From a virus (Duplodnaviria > Heunggongvirae > Uroviricota > Caudoviricetes): 8,971 nucleotides of DNA. The notes beneath the pieces were generated by a model. That model saw only the letters and a program-made list of their open reading frames with translations. It was not told the DNA's origin and did no database searches. The stretch lies in the IMG/VR virus record IMGVR_UViG_2602041905_000014. The stretch is one strand, 5' to 3'. The position numbers were made by a program, and so were the translations under genes. Below are positions 2,739-8,971 of the stretch, piece by piece (the first letter of the stretch is position 1; every line of letters begins with the position of its first letter).

Positions 2739-3959
2739 GTGGGAAAAGCACTAAACAAACTGAGCGATTCAACGTTAAAAAAATTGGTGGCTGTCCAGGC
2801 AGAAAAAGAGCGTTTTTACTCCGACGGGGGCGGGCTGGAGATTAAACACTCAAAGGGCGGCAAATTAACCTGGTATTTCCGGTACCGAACGGGAGGCCGT
2901 GAGGTTGCCGCAGAGCGGTTAAAGCTGGGGGCTTACCCTGAATTGTCGCTGAAAGCCGCAAGGGAAAAACGCACACTGTGCCGGGCATGGCTGGCTGAGG
3001 GTAAAAACCCCCGTTATGAGTTGTGCGCCACAGTACAGGAAGCACTAAAACCCGTTACGGTGAAGGAAGCGATTAACTACTGGCTGGAGGAATATGCGAA
3101 GGATAACCGCAAAGATTACATAAAGCTGGTGCAGCGTATGGATAAGCACATCATTTGCCATATTGGGGCAATTCCCCTTGATAAGTGTGATACAAGGCAG
3201 TGGATCGCATGTTTTGACCGCGTACGAAAAAAAGCACCAGTAGCAGCGGGCCATGTCATGCAGACATGCAAACAGGCGCTAAAGTTTTGCCGCAGGCGGC
3301 GCTACGCGTTTAGCAACGCCCTGGACGATTTGATCGTTACTGATGTGGGTAAGAGAGCAGAAATCCGCGAGAGAGTGCACAGCAACAGCGAACTAAAAGA
3401 AATTCTACGCGCTATTGATGGTGATGTGTTCGCTCCCTATTACAGTGCGTTAATGCGCTTGTTAATTGTGTTCGGGTGCAGAACGGCAGAGATCAGACTT
3501 TCAGAGATCAAAGAATGGGATCTGAAAGAAATGTTGTGGACAGTGCCAAAAGAGCACAGCAAAACGAAGGTAACAATATTCCGACCTATTCCTGATGGTA
3601 TTTTGCCGTTCATTCAGAAGCTGGTGGAGCAAAACGCACACACTGGGTTATTACTCGGCGAACTGAAAAAAGATACCACGGTGGCGCAATATGGACGAAA
3701 TGCGCATAAGCGGCTTAAGCAGGAACACTGGACGCTGCATGATTTCCGACACACGTTTACAACTATGCTGAATGATTTAGGTGTCGATCCGCATATCGTG
3801 GAGCACATCACAGCGCATCAGATGCCAGGTCAGCAAAAAACCTATAACCATTCACGCTATTTGCAGGCGAAACGGGACGCACTGAATCTATGGGTTGAGC
3901 GTCTTGATGTGATTGCAGGATATAATGAAAATATTGTGATATTGAGAGGGATACAATGA
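2739..3959 (+). CDS. int: Tyrosine site-specific integrase (phage P4-type), 406 aa, GTG start
   Basis: N-terminal arm-binding-type region (YSDGGGLEIKHSKGGKLTWYFRYR). C-terminal catalytic signature HDFRHTF, then HxxxH and the tyrosine in TYNHSRY. GTG start with an AAGAGG Shine-Dalgarno motif 8 nt upstream. Confidence 0.9.
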   Translation: MGKALNKLSDSTLKKLVAVQAEKERFYSDGGGLEIKHSKGGKLTWYFRYRTGGREVAAERLKLGAYPELSLKAAREKRTLCRAWLAEGKNPRYELCATVQEALKPVTVKEAINYWLEEYAKDNRKDYIKLVQRMDKHIICHIGAIPLDKCDTRQWIACFDRVRKKAPVAAGHVMQTCKQALKFCRRRRYAFSNALDDLIVTDVGKRAEIRERVHSNSELKEILRAIDGDVFAPYYSALMRLLIVFGCRTAEIRLSEIKEWDLKEMLWTVPKEHSKTKVTIFRPIPDGILPFIQKLVEQNAHTGLLLGELKKDTTVAQYGRNAHKRLKQEHWTLHDFRHTFTTMLNDLGVDPHIVEHITAHQMPGQQKTYNHSRYLQAKRDALNLWVERLDVIAGYNENIVILRGIQ

Positions 3960-4810
3960 CGAAAAAAGTAAATAGTAAAAAAGATTTACCAAAGTCATTT
4001 GATTTAGGCAAATATGATTGCCTAGAAAACTTGTCGGATAAAGATCTATTTCGCCAATTATATTGGCGACAAGATGATTTAACAATGAAACATTCTGAGA
4101 TGCCTGAATATGGATTTATGTTTGGTGCTGAATACCCGTTGCATAATAATTACGGGGATCCATTTGGAGAGCTGAAAGAAGACGATTGGTTTTGTGATAA
4201 ACAAAAAGAATATGACCATAAAGTGCAACCGAAGTTAATTGAGCTAAGTTATGATGATGGAATTAAACCTGTAACAAGGTTTGATATATCAATGATTAAT
4301 AAACTGACTGCGGAAAGAGGATATTGGAAGGATAAACCAATCATCATAGATAATGAGATGGTTGGAAGTTTAATATCAGAAGATAATGGGATGTTTTGGG
4401 CTGTGATGCGTGAACCAGTGAATCTCCTTTCTGATACATTAGATAATATGCTTGTTTCTGTTGACTTACTACATAACAGAGATGATGAGTTGATTGAAGC
4501 GTTTACAAAACTATTACCAAAATGGCGTAGTGAACTTTCAATTGTTGAGCCAGACAAACCAATTGCAGGAAGTTGGGAAAGCATACGACGTAAAATTATT
4601 GATTATAAGATAATCCCATTAATTGACTTATTATCTTGGGAGTTGTCTACAGATAGAAAAATTTCATTAGGGGTGCTTGCCGTATCTTTGTACCCTGATG
4701 GTGAAAAGGACACCTTTGCTATTGCTCAGACTGTAAAACCTTTCTTAGAAAAAATAATGCGCAGCGATTCTTTAGAAAAAATAAGAAAAATGTTATCTAA
4801 TGAAAATTAA
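3956..4810 (+). CDS. Hypothetical protein, 284 aa, acidic, no recognisable motif; AT-rich gene translationally coupled to int
   Basis: Its ATG (3956-3958) overlaps the int TGA (3957-3959) as ATGA, with a GAGAGGG Shine-Dalgarno motif upstream. A long uninterrupted ORF whose base composition is visibly more AT-rich than the flanking int and alpA genes. Confidence 0.7.
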   Translation: MTKKVNSKKDLPKSFDLGKYDCLENLSDKDLFRQLYWRQDDLTMKHSEMPEYGFMFGAEYPLHNNYGDPFGELKEDDWFCDKQKEYDHKVQPKLIELSYDDGIKPVTRFDISMINKLTAERGYWKDKPIIIDNEMVGSLISEDNGMFWAVMREPVNLLSDTLDNMLVSVDLLHNRDDELIEAFTKLLPKWRSELSIVEPDKPIAGSWESIRRKIIDYKIIPLIDLLSWELSTDRKISLGVLAVSLYPDGEKDTFAIAQTVKPFLEKIMRSDSLEKIRKMLSNEN

Positions 4811-5354: not shown

Positions 5355-5576
5355 TCATGTTCGTTTACCGCATTTTTGCGTTGTTTTTTCTTGGATGAGG
5401 ATAATTTCTNNNNNNNNNNGACGCTGGCGGTATTCAACTTCTCGCTTTAATGCTGCTGTTACAAACTGCCCTGTACTTTCACCAGGCATTTTTACCGCCT
5501 CAACATTGTTCATAACTTCATGCGGAACCCTTGCCGCAACTGTTTGTGATTTTGCGTTTACTGCTTTTGTCGCCAT
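5355..5576 (-). CDS. Putative ribbon-helix-helix (Arc/MetJ/CopG-like) DNA-binding regulator; the 3' end is uncertain because the frame crosses the N gap
   Basis: Minus-strand ATG at 5574-5576 with an AAGGAG Shine-Dalgarno motif 8 nt upstream. The N-terminal 52 aa (MATKAVNAKSQTVAARVPHEVMNNVEAVKMPGESTGQFVTAALKREVEYRQR) fit a beta-strand plus two-helix RHH layout. It is divergent from the operator-bearing promoter region. Confidence 0.5.
   Translation of the reverse strand: MATKAVNAKSQTVAARVPHEVMNNVEAVKMPGESTGQFVTAALKREVEYRQRXXXXEIILIQEKTTQKCGKRT
5410..5419. other. Assembly gap (run of 10 N)
   Basis: Ten consecutive N characters. The true length and sequence are unknown, so every reading frame crossing it is unreliable. 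Confidence 0.99.
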
Positions 5577-5625
5577 GTTGTGTACTCCTTACAAAAAACA
5601 AATGCAGTATGCAGGAAAAAAAATA

Positions 5626-5677
5626 AGTGTTCAACACTTGACGTGTTTAACACCTAGGCTTAAATTGGTGTTTAACA
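5626..5677. promoter_or_regulatory. Operator/promoter region: three 11-bp palindromes GTGTT-N-AACAC overlapping a sigma70-like promoter
   Basis: Palindromes at 5626-5636 (GTGTTCAACAC), 5642-5652 and 5667-5677 (both GTGTTTAACAC). TTGACG (5637-5642) plus TTAAAT/TAAATT about 16-17 nt downstream (around 5659-5665) form a plausible rightward promoter with the palindromes at the -35, spacer and start region. Confidence 0.65.
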
Positions 5678-5775
5678 CCTTGTTGATGCAAGGTGCAGAA
5701 ACGACGAAACCCGGCAGTGCGCTAACACTAACCGGGCTTCTAACCACCAACGATAGCAGAAGTATCGAGGTAGCT

Positions 5776-5979
5776 ATGTTAAATCATACCACACACCCGC
5801 AAGGGCGGGACTCGCACAACCTGAATAAATTCATCTGGCGTTTTATCGCCCTGAGCACGGCACAACCGCGCGTGATTCACATCGTGGCCACCAGCGAACA
5901 GGAAGCACGCCAGCAATCCCCGGCTGGCTGCGTGATGATATTCGCCGCCCGTATTCGTCAGGGGGTGTGCCATGCCTGA
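5776..5979 (+). CDS. Small hypothetical protein, 67 aa, first gene of the rightward operon; possibly of the Icd-like family seen in P4-like prophages (recollection, unverified)
   Basis: ATG at 5776 preceded by GAGGT, in frame with the tail of the gap-spanning ORF 5335-5979. Its stop overlaps the start of the next ORF. Confidence 0.4.
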   Translation: MLNHTTHPQGRDSHNLNKFIWRFIALSTAQPRVIHIVATSEQEARQQSPAGCVMIFAARIRQGVCHA

Positions 5980-6292
5980 TATGTCAAATTACCAGTACCT
6001 GATTAATCCGCATTTTAACTGTGAGCATGATATTGCTAAAAAGGTTTATTCCGCTGCGGATGGGGCTACTGACAATATATCAATGGGTATTGCGTCAATT
6101 GGTAGCCTGATGTGGCATGCGTCAGAAAATGAGGACTATGACGAAAAGGCTATGCGCATTGATATGGGTAATATCGGTTTGTTACTGGCAATGCTTGGGC
6201 AGTTTGATATTTCGTTACGGTGCACCATTGAAAATGCCGCAGATGCATTAAATGCCATAAAGAAAGCGAATACTGATTCAAATCGGGGATAA
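5972..6292 (+). CDS. Hypothetical protein, 106 aa
   Basis: ORF whose ATG (5972) overlaps the end of the upstream small ORF, same orientation as the replication gene. No motif recognised. Confidence 0.5.
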   Translation: MPDMSNYQYLINPHFNCEHDIAKKVYSAADGATDNISMGIASIGSLMWHASENEDYDEKAMRIDMGNIGLLLAMLGQFDISLRCTIENAADALNAIKKANTDSNRG

Positions 6293-6298
6293 ATAATC

Positions 6299-6598
6299 AT
6301 GAGAACATATTTATCTGGCTTGACTGCCAGCGGTTATGCACACCCCAAAATTATCCCCGGCGCTATTTATCTGGATAAGAACGGTAACAGAGTAACGGTA
6401 AAAGAACTGATGTTTGACCGTGTGTATTTTATTCGTGATGGCTATTCATTTCATAGTTCGCTGAACGTGGAGATCTTTATTAGCAGATTCAGGCGGGAAA
6501 TCCCGCTTTCCAGAAATAATCATGTGTCATGTATGGATGTTGATAAAAAACTACAGGAACTGAAAAACATGATTGCCGCGTGGAGAGAGCAGAAATGA
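6299..6598 (+). CDS. Hypothetical small protein, 99 aa; resembles the DUF4222-type small proteins of P4-like prophages (recollection, unverified)
   Basis: ATG at 6299 is 6 nt after the previous stop. Its TGA (6596-6598) overlaps the ATG (6595-6597) of the helicase gene as ATGA. Pattern Y-D-x-x-G-x-RV-V ... DRV-F-R-GY. Confidence 0.55.
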   Translation: MRTYLSGLTASGYAHPKIIPGAIYLDKNGNRVTVKELMFDRVYFIRDGYSFHSSLNVEIFISRFRREIPLSRNNHVSCMDVDKKLQELKNMIAAWREQK

Positions 6599-8412
6599 AA
6601 AAAGCGCCAAATTTAAAACACCAGCCGCGTGACAAAATGACGGAAGTCATCATTTTTGCGGGTAGTGATGCGTGGGCACATGCGAAGCAGTGGCAGGAAC
6701 AGGACGGGCGACTGGCAGGCGATAACGTGCCACCTGTCTGGCTTGGAGAGCAACAACTTGCCGAACTGGACAACCTGCAAATCGTACCGGACGGACGCTA
6801 TCGCGTGCGTCTCTATCAGGCGGGGTTATTGCGTCCGGTGCTTGTTAATACCATCGGGCAGAAACTGGCAGCGGCAGGTGTCAGGGATGCTGATTATTAT
6901 CCTGAAGGAATGCACAGCCAGAAACGGGAGAACTGGCACGAATATCTGGAACGTGAACGGGCAGAGCTGGCGGAAAAGAAAAAGGTAGTTGAACTGCCTG
7001 TAAAGAAAAAAGAGCGGGTAAAAGACGATAACGCTTCATCACTGGCGCTTAACCAGATGGGAGCAAGTCAACGCGGCGAAGTTCTCCTGGCACATTATGG
7101 CGGTGAACTGGCGATTCATGCTGACTCTGACACTGTTCACCATTACAACGGCGTTGTATGGGAGCCAGTACAGGATAAAGAATTACAGCGAGCTATGGCA
7201 CAGATTTTCATTGATGCGGAGATCAGCTATTCGCAGAACGCCATTAAATCGGCGGTCGATACCATGAAGTTAAGTTTGCCTGTAATGGGGAATACAGCCC
7301 GTAACCTGATTGGATTCAGTAACGGGGTATTTGATACCAGAACAGGTAATTTTCGGGAGCATAACAAAAACGACTGGTTGTTAATTGCCAGTGAATTACC
7401 TTTCAGCCCACCAGCAGAGGGGGAAACGCTGGCAACACATGCGCCGAATTTCTGGAAGTGGTTACGCCGTTCGGTGGCTGAGAATGACCGCAAGGCGGAT
7501 CGCGTACTGGCTGCATTATTCATGGTGCTGGCGAACCGGTACGACTGGCAGTTATTCATTGAGGTAACAGGTCCAGGGGGAAGTGGTAAAAGCGTGATGG
7601 CGGAGATTTGCACCATGCTGGCGGGTAAGGCCAACACAGTATCGGCAAGCATGAAGGCGCTGGAAGATGCAAGGGAACGCGCGTTAGTGGTTGGCTTTTC
7701 GCTGATTATCATGCCGGATATGACCCGCTACGCTGGTGATGGGGCAGGGATTAAGGCTATTACAGGCGGTGACAAGGTGGCAATTGACCCGAAACACAAA
7801 GCCCCCTACTCAACGCGTATTCCGGCAGTAGTGCTGGCGGTTAACAATAACGCCATGTCATTCAGTGACCGCAGCGGGGGGATCTCACGTCGTCGGGTGA
7901 TATTCAATTTTTCGGAAGTTGTACCGGAGAACGAACGTGATCCAATGCTGGCCGAAAAAATAGAAGGTGAGCTGGCGGTAGTGATTCGCCATCTGCTTAC
8001 ACGGTTTGCTGACCAGGACGAAGCCAGACGCCTGTTATATGAGCAGCAGAAATCTGAAGAAGCACTGGCGATAAAGCGAGAGGGGGATTCGCTGGTGGAC
8101 TTCTGCGGCTATCTCATGGCGTCGGTAATGTGTGATGGCCTGTTAGTGGGTAATGCTGAAATTGTGCCATTCAGCCCACGCAGGTATCTCTATCATGCCT
8201 ATCTGGCTTATATGAGGGCACATGGGTTTGGTAAACCTGTAACACTGACGCGCTTCGGTAAAGATATGCCGGGGGCAATGGCGGAATATGGCAGGGAGTA
8301 TATGAAACGGAAAACGAAGCACGGTTTGCGTTCAAACGTGACACTGACGGAGGAATCAGAAGACTGGATGCCATCATGTGTATCGGTCACTAATGACGAT
8401 AGCAAAAATTAA
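6595..8412 (+). CDS. P4 alpha-like replication protein: P4-family primase C-terminal / D5-like SF3 helicase domain with a C-terminal origin-binding region, 605 aa from ATG 6595 (the track's GTG at 6580 is less likely)
   Basis: Walker A motif TGPGGSGKS inside the segment DWQLFIEVTGPGGSGKSVMAEIC, which is characteristic of P4-type primase-helicases. GGAGAGAG Shine-Dalgarno motif 5 nt before ATG 6595. Cognate-looking iterons lie immediately downstream. Confidence 0.85.
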   Translation: MKKAPNLKHQPRDKMTEVIIFAGSDAWAHAKQWQEQDGRLAGDNVPPVWLGEQQLAELDNLQIVPDGRYRVRLYQAGLLRPVLVNTIGQKLAAAGVRDADYYPEGMHSQKRENWHEYLERERAELAEKKKVVELPVKKKERVKDDNASSLALNQMGASQRGEVLLAHYGGELAIHADSDTVHHYNGVVWEPVQDKELQRAMAQIFIDAEISYSQNAIKSAVDTMKLSLPVMGNTARNLIGFSNGVFDTRTGNFREHNKNDWLLIASELPFSPPAEGETLATHAPNFWKWLRRSVAENDRKADRVLAALFMVLANRYDWQLFIEVTGPGGSGKSVMAEICTMLAGKANTVSASMKALEDARERALVVGFSLIIMPDMTRYAGDGAGIKAITGGDKVAIDPKHKAPYSTRIPAVVLAVNNNAMSFSDRSGGISRRRVIFNFSEVVPENERDPMLAEKIEGELAVVIRHLLTRFADQDEARRLLYEQQKSEEALAIKREGDSLVDFCGYLMASVMCDGLLVGNAEIVPFSPRRYLYHAYLAYMRAHGFGKPVTLTRFGKDMPGAMAEYGREYMKRKTKHGLRSNVTLTEESEDWMPSCVSVTNDDSKN

Positions 8413-8425
8413 ACTTATGGAATAA

Positions 8426-8648
8426 CTGTTCACCACTGTTCACCCCGTCATAAATGTCTTTTATATCATTATATTATAGGGTGAACAGTTATTTATGAAC
8501 TGTTCACCAAACTATTCACTGTTCACCTTTTTGATTGTTTATTGAGCTGCAAGGGTGAACAGTGGTGAACAGTTGGTGAATAGTTTTTGTGAAACTGTTC
8601 ACCCCTTAACATTATGAATTGAAAGAGAAAATAGCAAAAGGTGAACAG
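8426..8648. repeat. Iteron cluster (putative ori or crr of the P4-like replicon): about 9 perfect and 2 degenerate copies of CTGTTCACC / GGTGAACAG in both orientations
   Basis: Perfect copies at 8426-8434, 8436-8444, 8480-8488 (reverse), 8500-8508, 8519-8527, 8554-8562 (reverse), 8564-8572 (reverse), 8595-8603 and 8640-8648 (reverse). Degenerate copies at 8511-8519 and 8575-8583. The TGTTCACC octamer is the type I iteron bound by P4 alpha. Confidence 0.85.
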
Positions 8649-8971
8649 GTGAAGGGTTAAAATACAAAAATTTTATTACAGCATGGAATATTAAGTTTTA
8701 GCCGACAGGTAGTTAGCCATAAGAGGATATTTGTCGCTTAGTATTACGTACATAACAGCAAACACTTTTCTGGTTTGCTGGATTAATAGATAAGCGCTAT
8801 AAGTTAGTTAGTTTTGAAAAATTTATTGAATAACTCTAAGCTTTCAGGATGTATATATTGAGTAGGGTAACTGATACGTTGTGAGCGTCCAATTTTTATT
8901 GTGTTCTTTTTCGTCTTCCCAAAAAATAGATTCTTCCATGTTAAAATGTTTCCGTGATTATATTTATTGTC

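What the first reader, a model, noticed from the sequence alone, without database searches (positions are those of the whole stretch)
8649..8971. AT-rich, ORF-poor stretch just past the origin: likely entry to the element's variable cargo region
After the iteron cluster, composition turns strongly AT-rich and no ORF of 60 aa or more appears in about 320 bp up to the window end. In P4-like satellites and PICIs the region beyond the replication module is a hotspot for accessory, often anti-phage, genes. This stretch could hold a cargo promoter, a small RNA, or the start of a gene running off the window (an ATG at 8938 opens a frame to the edge, but it lacks a convincing Shine-Dalgarno motif).
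Basis: inference. Interest (0 to 1): 0.5.

Follow-up and report, generated by a model that had tools for sequence, protein, structure and literature searches.

The report
Tail of a satellite-borne HEPN gene
The AT-rich "empty" stretch after the replication origin is the last 55 codons and trailing DNA of a backward-facing, foreign-looking HEPN-domain gene that, in about 25 of 5,426 E. coli genomes, replaces the usual SSB gene pair of this phage satellite; it is a plausible but untested anti-phage cargo gene.

Summary
The AT-richness is real. Window 8649-8971 has GC 0.313, the lowest of any 323-bp stretch in the window. The stretch is not gene-free. The minus strand is open from the window edge down to a stop at 8804-8806. 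This is the C-terminus of a 237-aa gene that RefSeq annotates as "HEPN domain-containing protein", in genomes 100% identical to the window across this region.

The primase end and iteron origin occur in 659 of 5,426 complete E. coli genomes. Homology to those relatives stops at 8675/8676. From there an 899-bp cassette (GC 0.31), found in 25 genomes, replaces the plus-strand hypothetical+SSB pair (at least 729 genomes). About 400 bp beyond the window edge, conserved sequence resumes and runs into the capsid (ClpP-protease/major-capsid fusion) operon.

The protein has a confident HEPN fold of the PF05168 AF0298/AbiV-like type: E-x3-K, an invariant H70 and R107, but no canonical Rx4-6H. It also has an uncharacterised C-terminal domain. 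Homologues occupy the same slot in Klebsiella, Citrobacter and Rahnella satellites and in a satellite on a metagenome scaffold. More distant homologues stand alone, with no conserved partner.

The best reading is a single-gene accessory cassette, probably an RNA-targeting abortive-infection or interference effector. That function is inferred, not shown.

The parts
8426..8648 (.). Iteron cluster of the satellite origin (context only). There are 10 copies of GGTGAACAG in both orientations, and the last copy is at 8640-8648.
   Evidence: 10 matches with at most 1 mismatch in this span. The window as a whole holds 14 matches, against 1.7 expected from shuffles.
8649..8675 (.). Last 27 bp of the conserved origin flank (GTGAAGGGTTAAAATACAAAAATTTTA). 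It is shared with relatives that carry hyp+ssb instead of the HEPN gene.
   Evidence: In the alignment with L005, identity holds (two mismatches) up to L001 12376, which is window 8675. In one search, most of the 594 matching genomes stop at query position 376, which is window 8675.
8676..8803 (-). 128-bp 3' flank of the HEPN cassette. It is non-coding, specific to the cassette, and not conserved in other genera.
   Evidence: The breakpoint is at 8675/8676. In one search the flank has no nucleotide conservation with the Klebsiella, Citrobacter or Rahnella loci, where the HEPN stop is followed by each element's own iterons. There are no Rfam, promoter or terminator hits here.
8756..8780 (-). 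Perfect 8-bp inverted repeat, CAGCAAAC-N9-GTTTGCTG, 23 nt downstream of the HEPN stop codon. It is a possible weak terminator hairpin between the convergent HEPN and primase transcripts.
   Evidence: One search reports it as the only inverted repeat in the stretch, and it also forms in the fold. It has no T-run, so it fails the terminator scan. The terminator role is inference only.
8804..8971 (-). Stop codon plus the last 55 codons of the 237-aa HEPN-domain gene (residues 183-237: DNKYNHGNILTWKNLFFGKTKKNTIKIGRSQRISYPTQYIHPESLELFNKFFKTN). This part belongs to the uncharacterised C-terminal domain. The gene continues 546 nt beyond the window edge.
   Evidence: The translation matches the ORF at L001 12505-13218(-), which one search shows annotated in RefSeq as WP_001596799.1. 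This segment contains family-conserved positions L192, W194, N196, F199, G200 and P224.

Best explanation
Shown. The window ends inside an E. coli phage-inducible chromosomal island (PICI-type satellite) inserted between rcnR and thiM. Its layout is: integrase, DUF6387, AlpA-like HTH, Icd-like, DUF4222, D5-type primase, iteron origin, then the stretch in question, then a 69-aa phrog_4934 gene, a ClpP-protease/major-capsid fusion, DUF1441 and a final hypothetical.

The stretch 8676-8971 is the left end of an 899-bp, single-gene cassette with GC 0.31. The cassette carries a minus-strand 237-aa gene that is convergent with the primase operon and divergent from the capsid operon. It occupies exactly the place where most relatives carry a plus-strand 81-aa hypothetical plus SSB.

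The protein has an N-terminal HEPN four-helix domain of the PF05168 (HEPN-T) type. It has E51-x3-K55 in helix 2, an invariant H70 after helix 2 and an invariant R107 just after helix 3. This is the AF0298/AbiV-like 'alternative histidine' arrangement rather than Rx4-6H. A roughly 100-aa C-terminal domain has no known relatives. The gene has no conserved partner.

Inferred. It is an accessory ('moron') gene of the satellite. It most likely encodes a stand-alone RNA-binding or RNA-cleaving HEPN effector that aborts or interferes with infection by competing or helper phages, perhaps held inactive until a phage cue acts through the C-terminal domain. The AT-richness reflects foreign origin. The 128-bp flank is simply its 3' untranslated tail, with a weak hairpin that may stop convergent transcription from running into the origin.
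For: Gene and coordinates.

Replacement and breakpoints:
- The alignment places the left breakpoint at window 8675/8676.
- One search shows homology resuming at L001 13276.
- The hyp+ssb pair is present in 8 of 10 sampled relatives (L002-L007, L019, L020). A 583-bp deletion of that pair is present in the other 2 (L018, L021).
- Counts: the HEPN cassette is in 25 genomes, the primase end and origin in 659, the ori-hyp-ssb junction in at least 729, and the capsid-operon start in 182 genomes at 80% or more coverage, 235 with any match.

Foreign composition: the HEPN CDS has GC 0.298, against 0.509 for the primase, 0.496 for the capsid fusion and 0.558 for hyp+ssb. Homologues are also AT-rich relative to their own loci.

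Fold and motifs:
- Pfam HEPN scores 21.5 bits here, and 30-35 bits for three homologues, two of them (P0011, P0016) in the same satellite slot.
- The AlphaFold2 model has pLDDT 90.4.
- Invariant residues are listed.
- The motif reading follows Anantharaman et al. 2013 (PMC3710099).

Accessory and mobile nature:
- Flanking genes are 98.6-99.8% identical to an ssb-state relative, while the slot differs.
- The same gene sits alone in a Pectobacterium chromosome.
- In 80 distant loci no neighbour family is shared by more than 4 loci.
- Some neighbours are restriction-modification, Septu or candidate defence genes and IS110 transposases.
Against: - No defence-system model matches the protein (PADLOC 2.0), and neither NCBIfam nor PHROGs gives a match.
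- The canonical catalytic Rx4-6H motif is absent, so RNase activity is uncertain. PF05168-type HEPN domains include non-catalytic binding domains.
- The gene keeps the same slot and orientation in satellites of Klebsiella, Citrobacter and Rahnella and in a satellite on a metagenome scaffold, at 48-83% identity and with two different replication-gene types. That could instead mean a role in the satellite life cycle.
- Many neighbours of distant homologues are housekeeping genes, so enrichment in defence islands is not established.
- No expression or phenotype data exist.
Confidence: 0.55

Rival explanations
1. The HEPN protein is part of the satellite's own life cycle. It could be a non-catalytic RNA- or nucleotide-binding regulator of the divergently transcribed capsid and packaging operon, or a device aimed specifically at the helper phage's late transcripts. 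On this reading it is not host-protective cargo.
For: The position and orientation, between the origin and the 64-69-aa gene plus ClpP/major-capsid fusion, are conserved in Escherichia, Klebsiella (two lineages), Citrobacter and Rahnella and in a satellite on a metagenome scaffold. This holds with either D5-primase or AAA_25 replication genes. HEPN identity broadly follows capsid-fusion identity in Klebsiella, Citrobacter and Rahnella (65-69% against 71-79%), but falls to 48% against 71% in the metagenome satellite. The canonical Rx4-6H motif is absent. MtlR-type HEPN domains act as regulators (PMC3710099).
Against: Capsid-operon satellites with 99.8% identical capsid fusion and 98.6% identical phrog_4934 lack the gene altogether (L005), and only 25 of 182 or more do carry it. 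It is therefore dispensable for the life cycle. Homologues also occur outside any satellite, in Pectobacterium and in 80 diverse loci with no capsid genes nearby.
Confidence: 0.2
2. The gene is an addiction or toxin module that stabilises the satellite in the chromosome. It would be a HEPN toxin kept in check by an unrecognised small antitoxin (RNA or peptide), with no direct role in phage defence.
Against: No MNT or other conserved partner of 70 aa or more lies next to the gene in 9 close and 80 distant contexts. The small minus-strand ORF upstream (L001 13350-13487) is antisense to a well-supported phrog_4934 gene, and a comparable antisense small ORF is annotated at the same place in elements without the HEPN gene. 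It is therefore probably not a real gene.
Confidence: 0.1
3. The AT-rich stretch would be a functional non-coding element: the unwinding region of the origin, a cargo promoter, or a small RNA.
For: It is adjacent to the iterons and is the most AT-rich part of the window. A perfect 8-bp hairpin lies at 8756-8780.
Against: Everything to the right of 8675 is absent from at least 95% of elements with the same primase and origin (25 of 659 genomes carry it). In the ssb-state relative L005 the hyp+ssb genes that fill this slot have GC 0.56. So this sequence cannot be an essential part of the origin. Of its 296 bp, 168 bp are coding sequence for a conserved protein. No promoter, terminator or Rfam signal is present. 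The 128-bp flank is not conserved across genera.
Confidence: 0.05

Closest known systems
HEPN-T / Pfam PF05168 'classical' HEPN domains (AF0298 2hsb, TT1696 1ufb, ST0689 1wol, TM0613 1o3u, sacsin HEPN 3o10)
   Different: No minimal nucleotidyltransferase partner or fusion is present. The protein has an extra conserved C-terminal domain of about 100 aa with no Pfam, PDB-sequence or fold match. This sequence scores 21.5 bits, just under the Pfam cut-off of 22.
AbiV (lactococcal single-gene abortive-infection HEPN protein; PDB 9bj5/9bj7)
   Different: There is no detectable sequence relationship: the PADLOC models, which I assume include AbiV, give no hit at E of 1 or less. The structural score is weaker than to archaeal HEPN-T proteins. 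The C-terminal domain is different. No phenotype is known.
Accessory and defence hotspots of phage satellites (P4 psu-int hotspot; PICI accessory genes next to the integrase or after terS)
   Same: In each case an AT-rich gene of an immunity-associated domain class is swapped into a fixed slot between near-identical core genes of a satellite (Rousset et al. 2022, PMC9122126; de Sousa et al. 2023, PMC10085698).
   Different: The slot here, between the origin and the capsid operon, is not one of the PICI accessory positions described in PMC10085698. In the E. coli relatives sampled here it was seen in three states: hyp+SSB, a deletion of that pair, or HEPN. It is not a diverse reservoir. This element's conventional accessory slot lies near the integrase, holding DUF6387 here and TIR, Abi or BRO-N genes in relatives.

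Membership tests
HEPN superfamily, HEPN-T clade (Pfam PF05168) | Four-helix up-down HEPN fold | tested here: met
   [not shown]
HEPN superfamily, HEPN-T clade (Pfam PF05168) | Score at or above the Pfam gathering threshold (22 bits) | tested here: inconclusive
   This protein scores 21.5 bits, E 2.8e-4. Homologues P0011 and P0016, in the same satellite slot, score 34.6 and 30.4 bits, and distant homologue P0031 scores 29.7.
HEPN superfamily (catalytic RNase type) | Conserved Rx4-6H motif at the end of helix 3 | tested here: not met
   The invariant arginines are R20, R31, R107 and R131, and the only invariant histidine is H70. No histidine lies 4-6 residues after any invariant arginine.
HEPN-T AF0298/AbiV-like variant | Basic residue at the motif position, a second conserved histidine N-terminal to it, and E-x3-[KR] in helix 2 (Anantharaman 2013) | tested here: met
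   R107 lies 4 residues after helix 91-103. H70 lies in the loop after helix 39-60. E51-K52-Y53-I54-K55 lies in helix 2. All are invariant in 30 sequences, and the definition comes. That these residues cluster in three dimensions was not checked.
MNT-HEPN toxin-antitoxin modules | Adjacent or fused minimal nucleotidyltransferase gene | tested here: not met
   No nucleotidyltransferase neighbour is seen in the close contexts sampled. Among 80 distant loci, no neighbour family is shared by more than 4.
Known anti-phage defence systems (PADLOC-DB 2.0) | Match to a defence-protein model | tested here: not met
   There are no hits at E of 1 or less.
Anti-phage defence (functional) | Reduces plating or burst of at least one phage when expressed | not testable with these tools
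   This requires an experiment.
PICI-type phage satellite (the host element) | Integrase, AlpA-type regulator, primase-replicase with adjacent origin, capsid-morphogenesis gene and packaging gene, about 10 kb, with no tail or lysis genes | tested here: met
   The gene table spans L001 6351-16511, about 10.2 kb. Iterons are shown. A relative is deposited as a 10,790-bp circular record, consistent with an excised replicating form. The criteria are from PMC10085698. SatelliteFinder itself was not run, and the packaging role of DUF1441 is assumed.

The most novel reading that the evidence does not exclude
The roughly 240-250-aa 'HEPN-T plus unknown C-terminal domain' proteins may be an unrecognised single-gene anti-phage or anti-helper system. 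The family has about 1,600 clusters at 50% identity across Proteobacteria, Acidobacteria, Planctomycetes, Nitrospirae and Verrucomicrobia. Enterobacterial PICIs would carry it in a previously undescribed accessory slot between the origin and the capsid operon, having traded their SSB genes for it. The C-terminal domain, whose last 55 residues are in this window, would act as the phage sensor.
Probability: 0.3. Interest if true: 0.6.

Novelty: new member of a known kind. Interest (0 to 1): 0.33.

Why it matters
As written, the finding is largely explained. A gene running off the window edge on the other strand accounts for the 'empty' AT-rich DNA, and that gene is already annotated in RefSeq.

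The comparison adds four things:
- an exact swap point, 8675/8676, right after the iterons;
- evidence that a satellite can exchange its SSB module for a stand-alone HEPN gene while its flanking genes stay 98.6-99.8% identical;
- the recurrence of this gene in the same slot in several enterobacterial genera;
- a sizeable, uncharacterised HEPN family that current defence finders miss.

If the gene proves to be a defence or helper-interference effector, it would add a new single-gene system and a third accessory position to the PICI map. If not, this is routine annotation.

Tried and rejected
- Rfam scan of the origin-to-capsid region. The only hits were sub-threshold eukaryotic miRNA-hairpin matches over the iteron inverted repeats. 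I rejected these as artefacts.
- Promoter and terminator scan. The counts were no higher than in shuffles, and none fell in 8649-8971.
- By eye, a perfect TATAAT lies on the minus strand about 57 nt upstream of the HEPN ATG, at L001 about 13276-13281, exactly at the right breakpoint. It has no acceptable -35 element, so I kept it only as an inference.
- PADLOC, NCBIfam and PHROGs searches with the HEPN protein gave no hits.
- PDB profile search gave only 1wol at E 0.29. The C-terminal domain alone gave nothing credible in PDB sequences or Pfam.
I reran them with the 99%-identical P0001.
- Alignment of the 3' flank across genera showed no conservation, so no conserved 3' element.
- The idea of an 'empty' third slot state was rejected. 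It is a 583-bp internal deletion of hyp+ssb.
- Defence-island enrichment among 150 neighbours of distant homologues gave a mixed picture: restriction-modification, Septu, candidate defence genes and IS110, but also DNA polymerase III, aconitase and ABC transporters. There was no baseline, so I left this as inconclusive.
- Literature searches found no paper naming this protein or describing HEPN cargo in PICIs.

Full report
**Observation**

The window's iteron cluster consists of GGTGAACAG in both orientations, with 10 copies between 8426 and 8648. The window as a whole holds 14 matches, against 1.7 expected from shuffles. The cluster ends at 8648, so the finding starts exactly after the last iteron.

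The 323 bp from 8649 to 8971 have GC 0.313, against 0.448 for the window. That is the lowest value of any 323-bp sub-window. No complete ORF of 60 aa or more lies there.

The six-frame translation changes the picture. The minus-strand frame that enters at 8971 stays open for 55 codons and ends at a TAA at 8804-8806.

**What the sequence belongs to**

A megablast of 8300-8971 against 5,426 complete E. coli genomes found 594 genomes with a match. Only 22 of them cover 80% or more of the query, and most of the rest stop at query position 376, which is window 8675.

In strain GN06489 (locus L001, 100% identical to window 5420-8971) the region is annotated. The element is a roughly 10-kb island between rcnR and thiM, with these genes in order:
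- tyrosine integrase
- DUF6387
- AlpA-like HTH
- YlcI/YnfO (minus strand)
- Icd-like
- a hypothetical
- DUF4222
- D5-type primase (ends at window 8412)
- a minus-strand "HEPN domain-containing protein" of 237 aa (L001 12505-13218, which is window 8804 to 546 nt beyond the edge)
- a ClpP-protease/major-capsid fusion
- DUF1441
- a last hypothetical

This is the organisation of an enterobacterial PICI-type satellite as described by de Sousa et al. 2023 (PMC10085698). A close relative is even deposited as a 10,790-bp circular record, consistent with an excised, replicating form.

The stretch in the finding therefore has three parts:
- 8649-8675: 27 bp of conserved origin flank.
- 8676-8803: a 128-bp 3' flank.
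- 8804-8971: the stop codon and last 55 codons of the HEPN gene.

**Is the slot variable?**

The counts are as follows:
- Primase end plus origin: 659 genomes, 758 places.
- The sequence to the right of 8675: 25 genomes.
- The start of the capsid operon: 182 genomes at 80% or more coverage, 235 with any match.

Alignment with an element that has the same capsid module (L005) puts the left breakpoint at window 8675/8676. Homology resumes at L001 13276. That defines an 899-bp cassette.

In 8 of 10 sampled relatives the same place holds a plus-strand 81-aa hypothetical gene followed by an SSB gene. In the other 2 it holds a 583-bp internal deletion of that pair. The ori-hyp-ssb junction is present in at least 729 genomes.

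The flanks of the two states are nearly identical. The primase is 98.8% identical, phrog_4934 98.6% and the capsid fusion 99.8%. So this is a clean module swap.

Composition supports a foreign origin. The HEPN CDS has GC 0.298, against 0.51 for the primase, 0.50 for the capsid fusion and 0.56 for hyp+ssb.

The slot does differ between elements, but in the relatives sampled here it takes only three states, and the common one is a replication accessory. About 400 bp beyond the window edge, conserved sequence resumes and runs into the conserved structural operon. The usual accessory slot of this family lies near the integrase: DUF6387 here, and TIR, Abi and BRO-N genes in relatives. That agrees with the published PICI layout.

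**Non-coding alternatives**

- No promoter-like or terminator-like site falls in 8649-8971, and counts in the wider region do not exceed shuffles.
- Rfam gives only sub-threshold miRNA-hairpin matches over the iteron inverted repeats.
- The single inverted repeat in the stretch is 8756-8763/8773-8780, 23 nt past the stop codon. It may act as a weak hairpin terminator between the convergent transcripts, but it lacks a T-run.
- The 128-bp flank is not conserved in other genera, where the HEPN stop codon is followed by each element's own iterons.
- Because at least 95% of elements with the same origin lack everything to the right of 8675, this DNA cannot be an essential origin component.

**The protein**

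Pfam gives HEPN (PF05168) at 21.5 bits, just under the cut-off of 22. Homologues P0011 and P0016, in the same slot of other satellites, and the more distant P0031 score 30-35 bits. PADLOC, NCBIfam and PHROGs give nothing.

The family alignment has these invariant positions: R20, D24, D26, Y27, R31, E51, K52, Y53, K55, H70, R107, Y108, D124, W128, R131, G175, L177, L192 and N196. It has no Rx4-6H.

I read these against Anantharaman et al. 2013 (PMC3710099). E51-x3-K55 in helix 2, R107 just after helix 3 and H70 N-terminal to it correspond to the alternative active-site arrangement those authors describe for the AF0298 group of HEPN-T and for AbiV. That arrangement is compatible with RNase activity but does not prove it.

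Residues from about 136 to 237, including the 55 encoded in the window, form a conserved domain. Its motifs are GGxLEK, LxWKNxFFG and HPE. It has no Pfam, PDB-sequence or fold relative.

**Distribution and context**

A profile search of 1.84 billion representatives finds 1,583 relatives, 405 of them at E of 1e-30 or better. Almost all of the listed top hits are 200-300 aa. A scan of one genome per species finds 229 loci across Proteobacteria, Acidobacteria, Planctomycetota, Nitrospirae, Verrucomicrobia and others.

Close homologues (48-83% identity) lie in the same slot and orientation in other satellites: between the replication gene with its iterons and a 64-aa gene plus ClpP/capsid fusion. 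This is seen in Klebsiella, Citrobacter and Rahnella and in a satellite on a metagenome scaffold. The replication gene is either a D5 primase or an AAA_25 helicase.

A 71%-identical copy sits alone between ordinary chromosomal genes in Pectobacterium. Among 80 distant loci, no neighbouring gene family is shared by more than four. So there is no partner, antitoxin or nucleotidyltransferase.

Neighbours within 1.5 kb are a mixture. They include type I and IIG restriction-modification, a Septu PtuA, candidate defence genes, CopG antitoxins and IS110 transposases. They also include DNA polymerase III, aconitase and ABC transporters. Without a baseline this is only suggestive.

**Interpretation**

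Shown: the stretch is the tail of a single-gene, AT-rich, minus-strand HEPN cassette that replaces hyp+ssb immediately after the origin of a PICI-type satellite.

Inferred, at roughly even odds: the gene is accessory cargo encoding a stand-alone RNA-targeting or RNA-binding HEPN effector. It would act in abortive infection or in interference with competing or helper phages.

The main rival is a role in the satellite's own cycle. The conserved slot across genera and the divergent arrangement with the capsid operon suggest this. Against it, satellites with a near-identical capsid operon lack the gene, and the gene occurs outside satellites. A partnerless addiction toxin is a lesser rival. The non-coding readings are essentially excluded.

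**Novelty and score**

The gene is already annotated as a HEPN-domain protein, and cargo swapping in satellites is a known phenomenon (PMC9122126, PMC13586616). This is a new member of a known kind.

The points of modest interest are:
- the exact swap point;
- the SSB-for-HEPN exchange;
- a slot not listed among PICI accessory positions;
- an uncharacterised, widespread HEPN family that PADLOC-DB 2.0 does not recognise.

No paper in the library names the protein.

Noticed in passing
L001 13365-13574 (+), about 690 bp beyond the window end: A 69-aa ORF whose stop overlaps the ATG of the ClpP/capsid fusion matches phrog_4934 at E 4.8e-32. It is 98.6% identical in L005. In most of the RefSeq records I looked at it is not annotated, and an antisense ORF of 42-57 aa is called there instead, probably a mis-call. 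A 64-aa gene sits at the same position in the Klebsiella, Citrobacter and Rahnella satellites.
   Followed up: partly
[not shown]
   Followed up: partly
L003, L004, L007, L013, L014, L017, L020 (flanks of related satellites): Several relatives are inserted inside prophage morphogenesis genes. The flanks are annotated as partial 'major capsid protein' (L003, L004) or partial terminase gpA (L007, L020). In L013, L014 and L017 a prophage portal gene lies beyond the integrase end and a second ClpP/capsid-fusion gene with tail genes beyond the other end; in L013 and L014 a 193-aa ClpP fragment also abuts the integrase. These satellites seem to integrate into a likely helper prophage's head genes, whereas the window's copy sits between rcnR and thiM.
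   Followed up: no
window 3956-4810 (+): The DUF6387 gene between the integrase and the AlpA-like regulator is also strongly AT-rich (GC 0.335). It occupies the conventional PICI accessory slot. Relatives carry a TIR-domain protein, an abortive-infection protein, a 467-aa hypothetical or a BRO-N protein near there. This is the element's real variable hotspot.
   Followed up: partly
window 5410-5419, against L001 9022-9120: The window has 10 nt where strain GN06489 has 99 nt. The rest of the 8,971 bases differ at only one position. The indel overlaps the 3' end of the minus-strand YlcI/YnfO-family gene.
   Followed up: no
L001 13276-13364 (conserved region between the HEPN gene and the capsid operon, beyond the window): The shared upstream region contains an inverted repeat, TGGTAAA-N11-TTTACCA, flanked by two ATCGAT sites (sequence). 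It is partly kept in elements without the HEPN gene. It may be an operator of the capsid operon.
   Followed up: no
window 8413-8648 / L001 12118-12333: Rfam reports MIR821 and other miRNA-precursor matches at E down to 1e-6, but far below their gathering scores (45 bits against 249). These are artefacts of the long hairpins that inverted iterons can form.
   Followed up: yes
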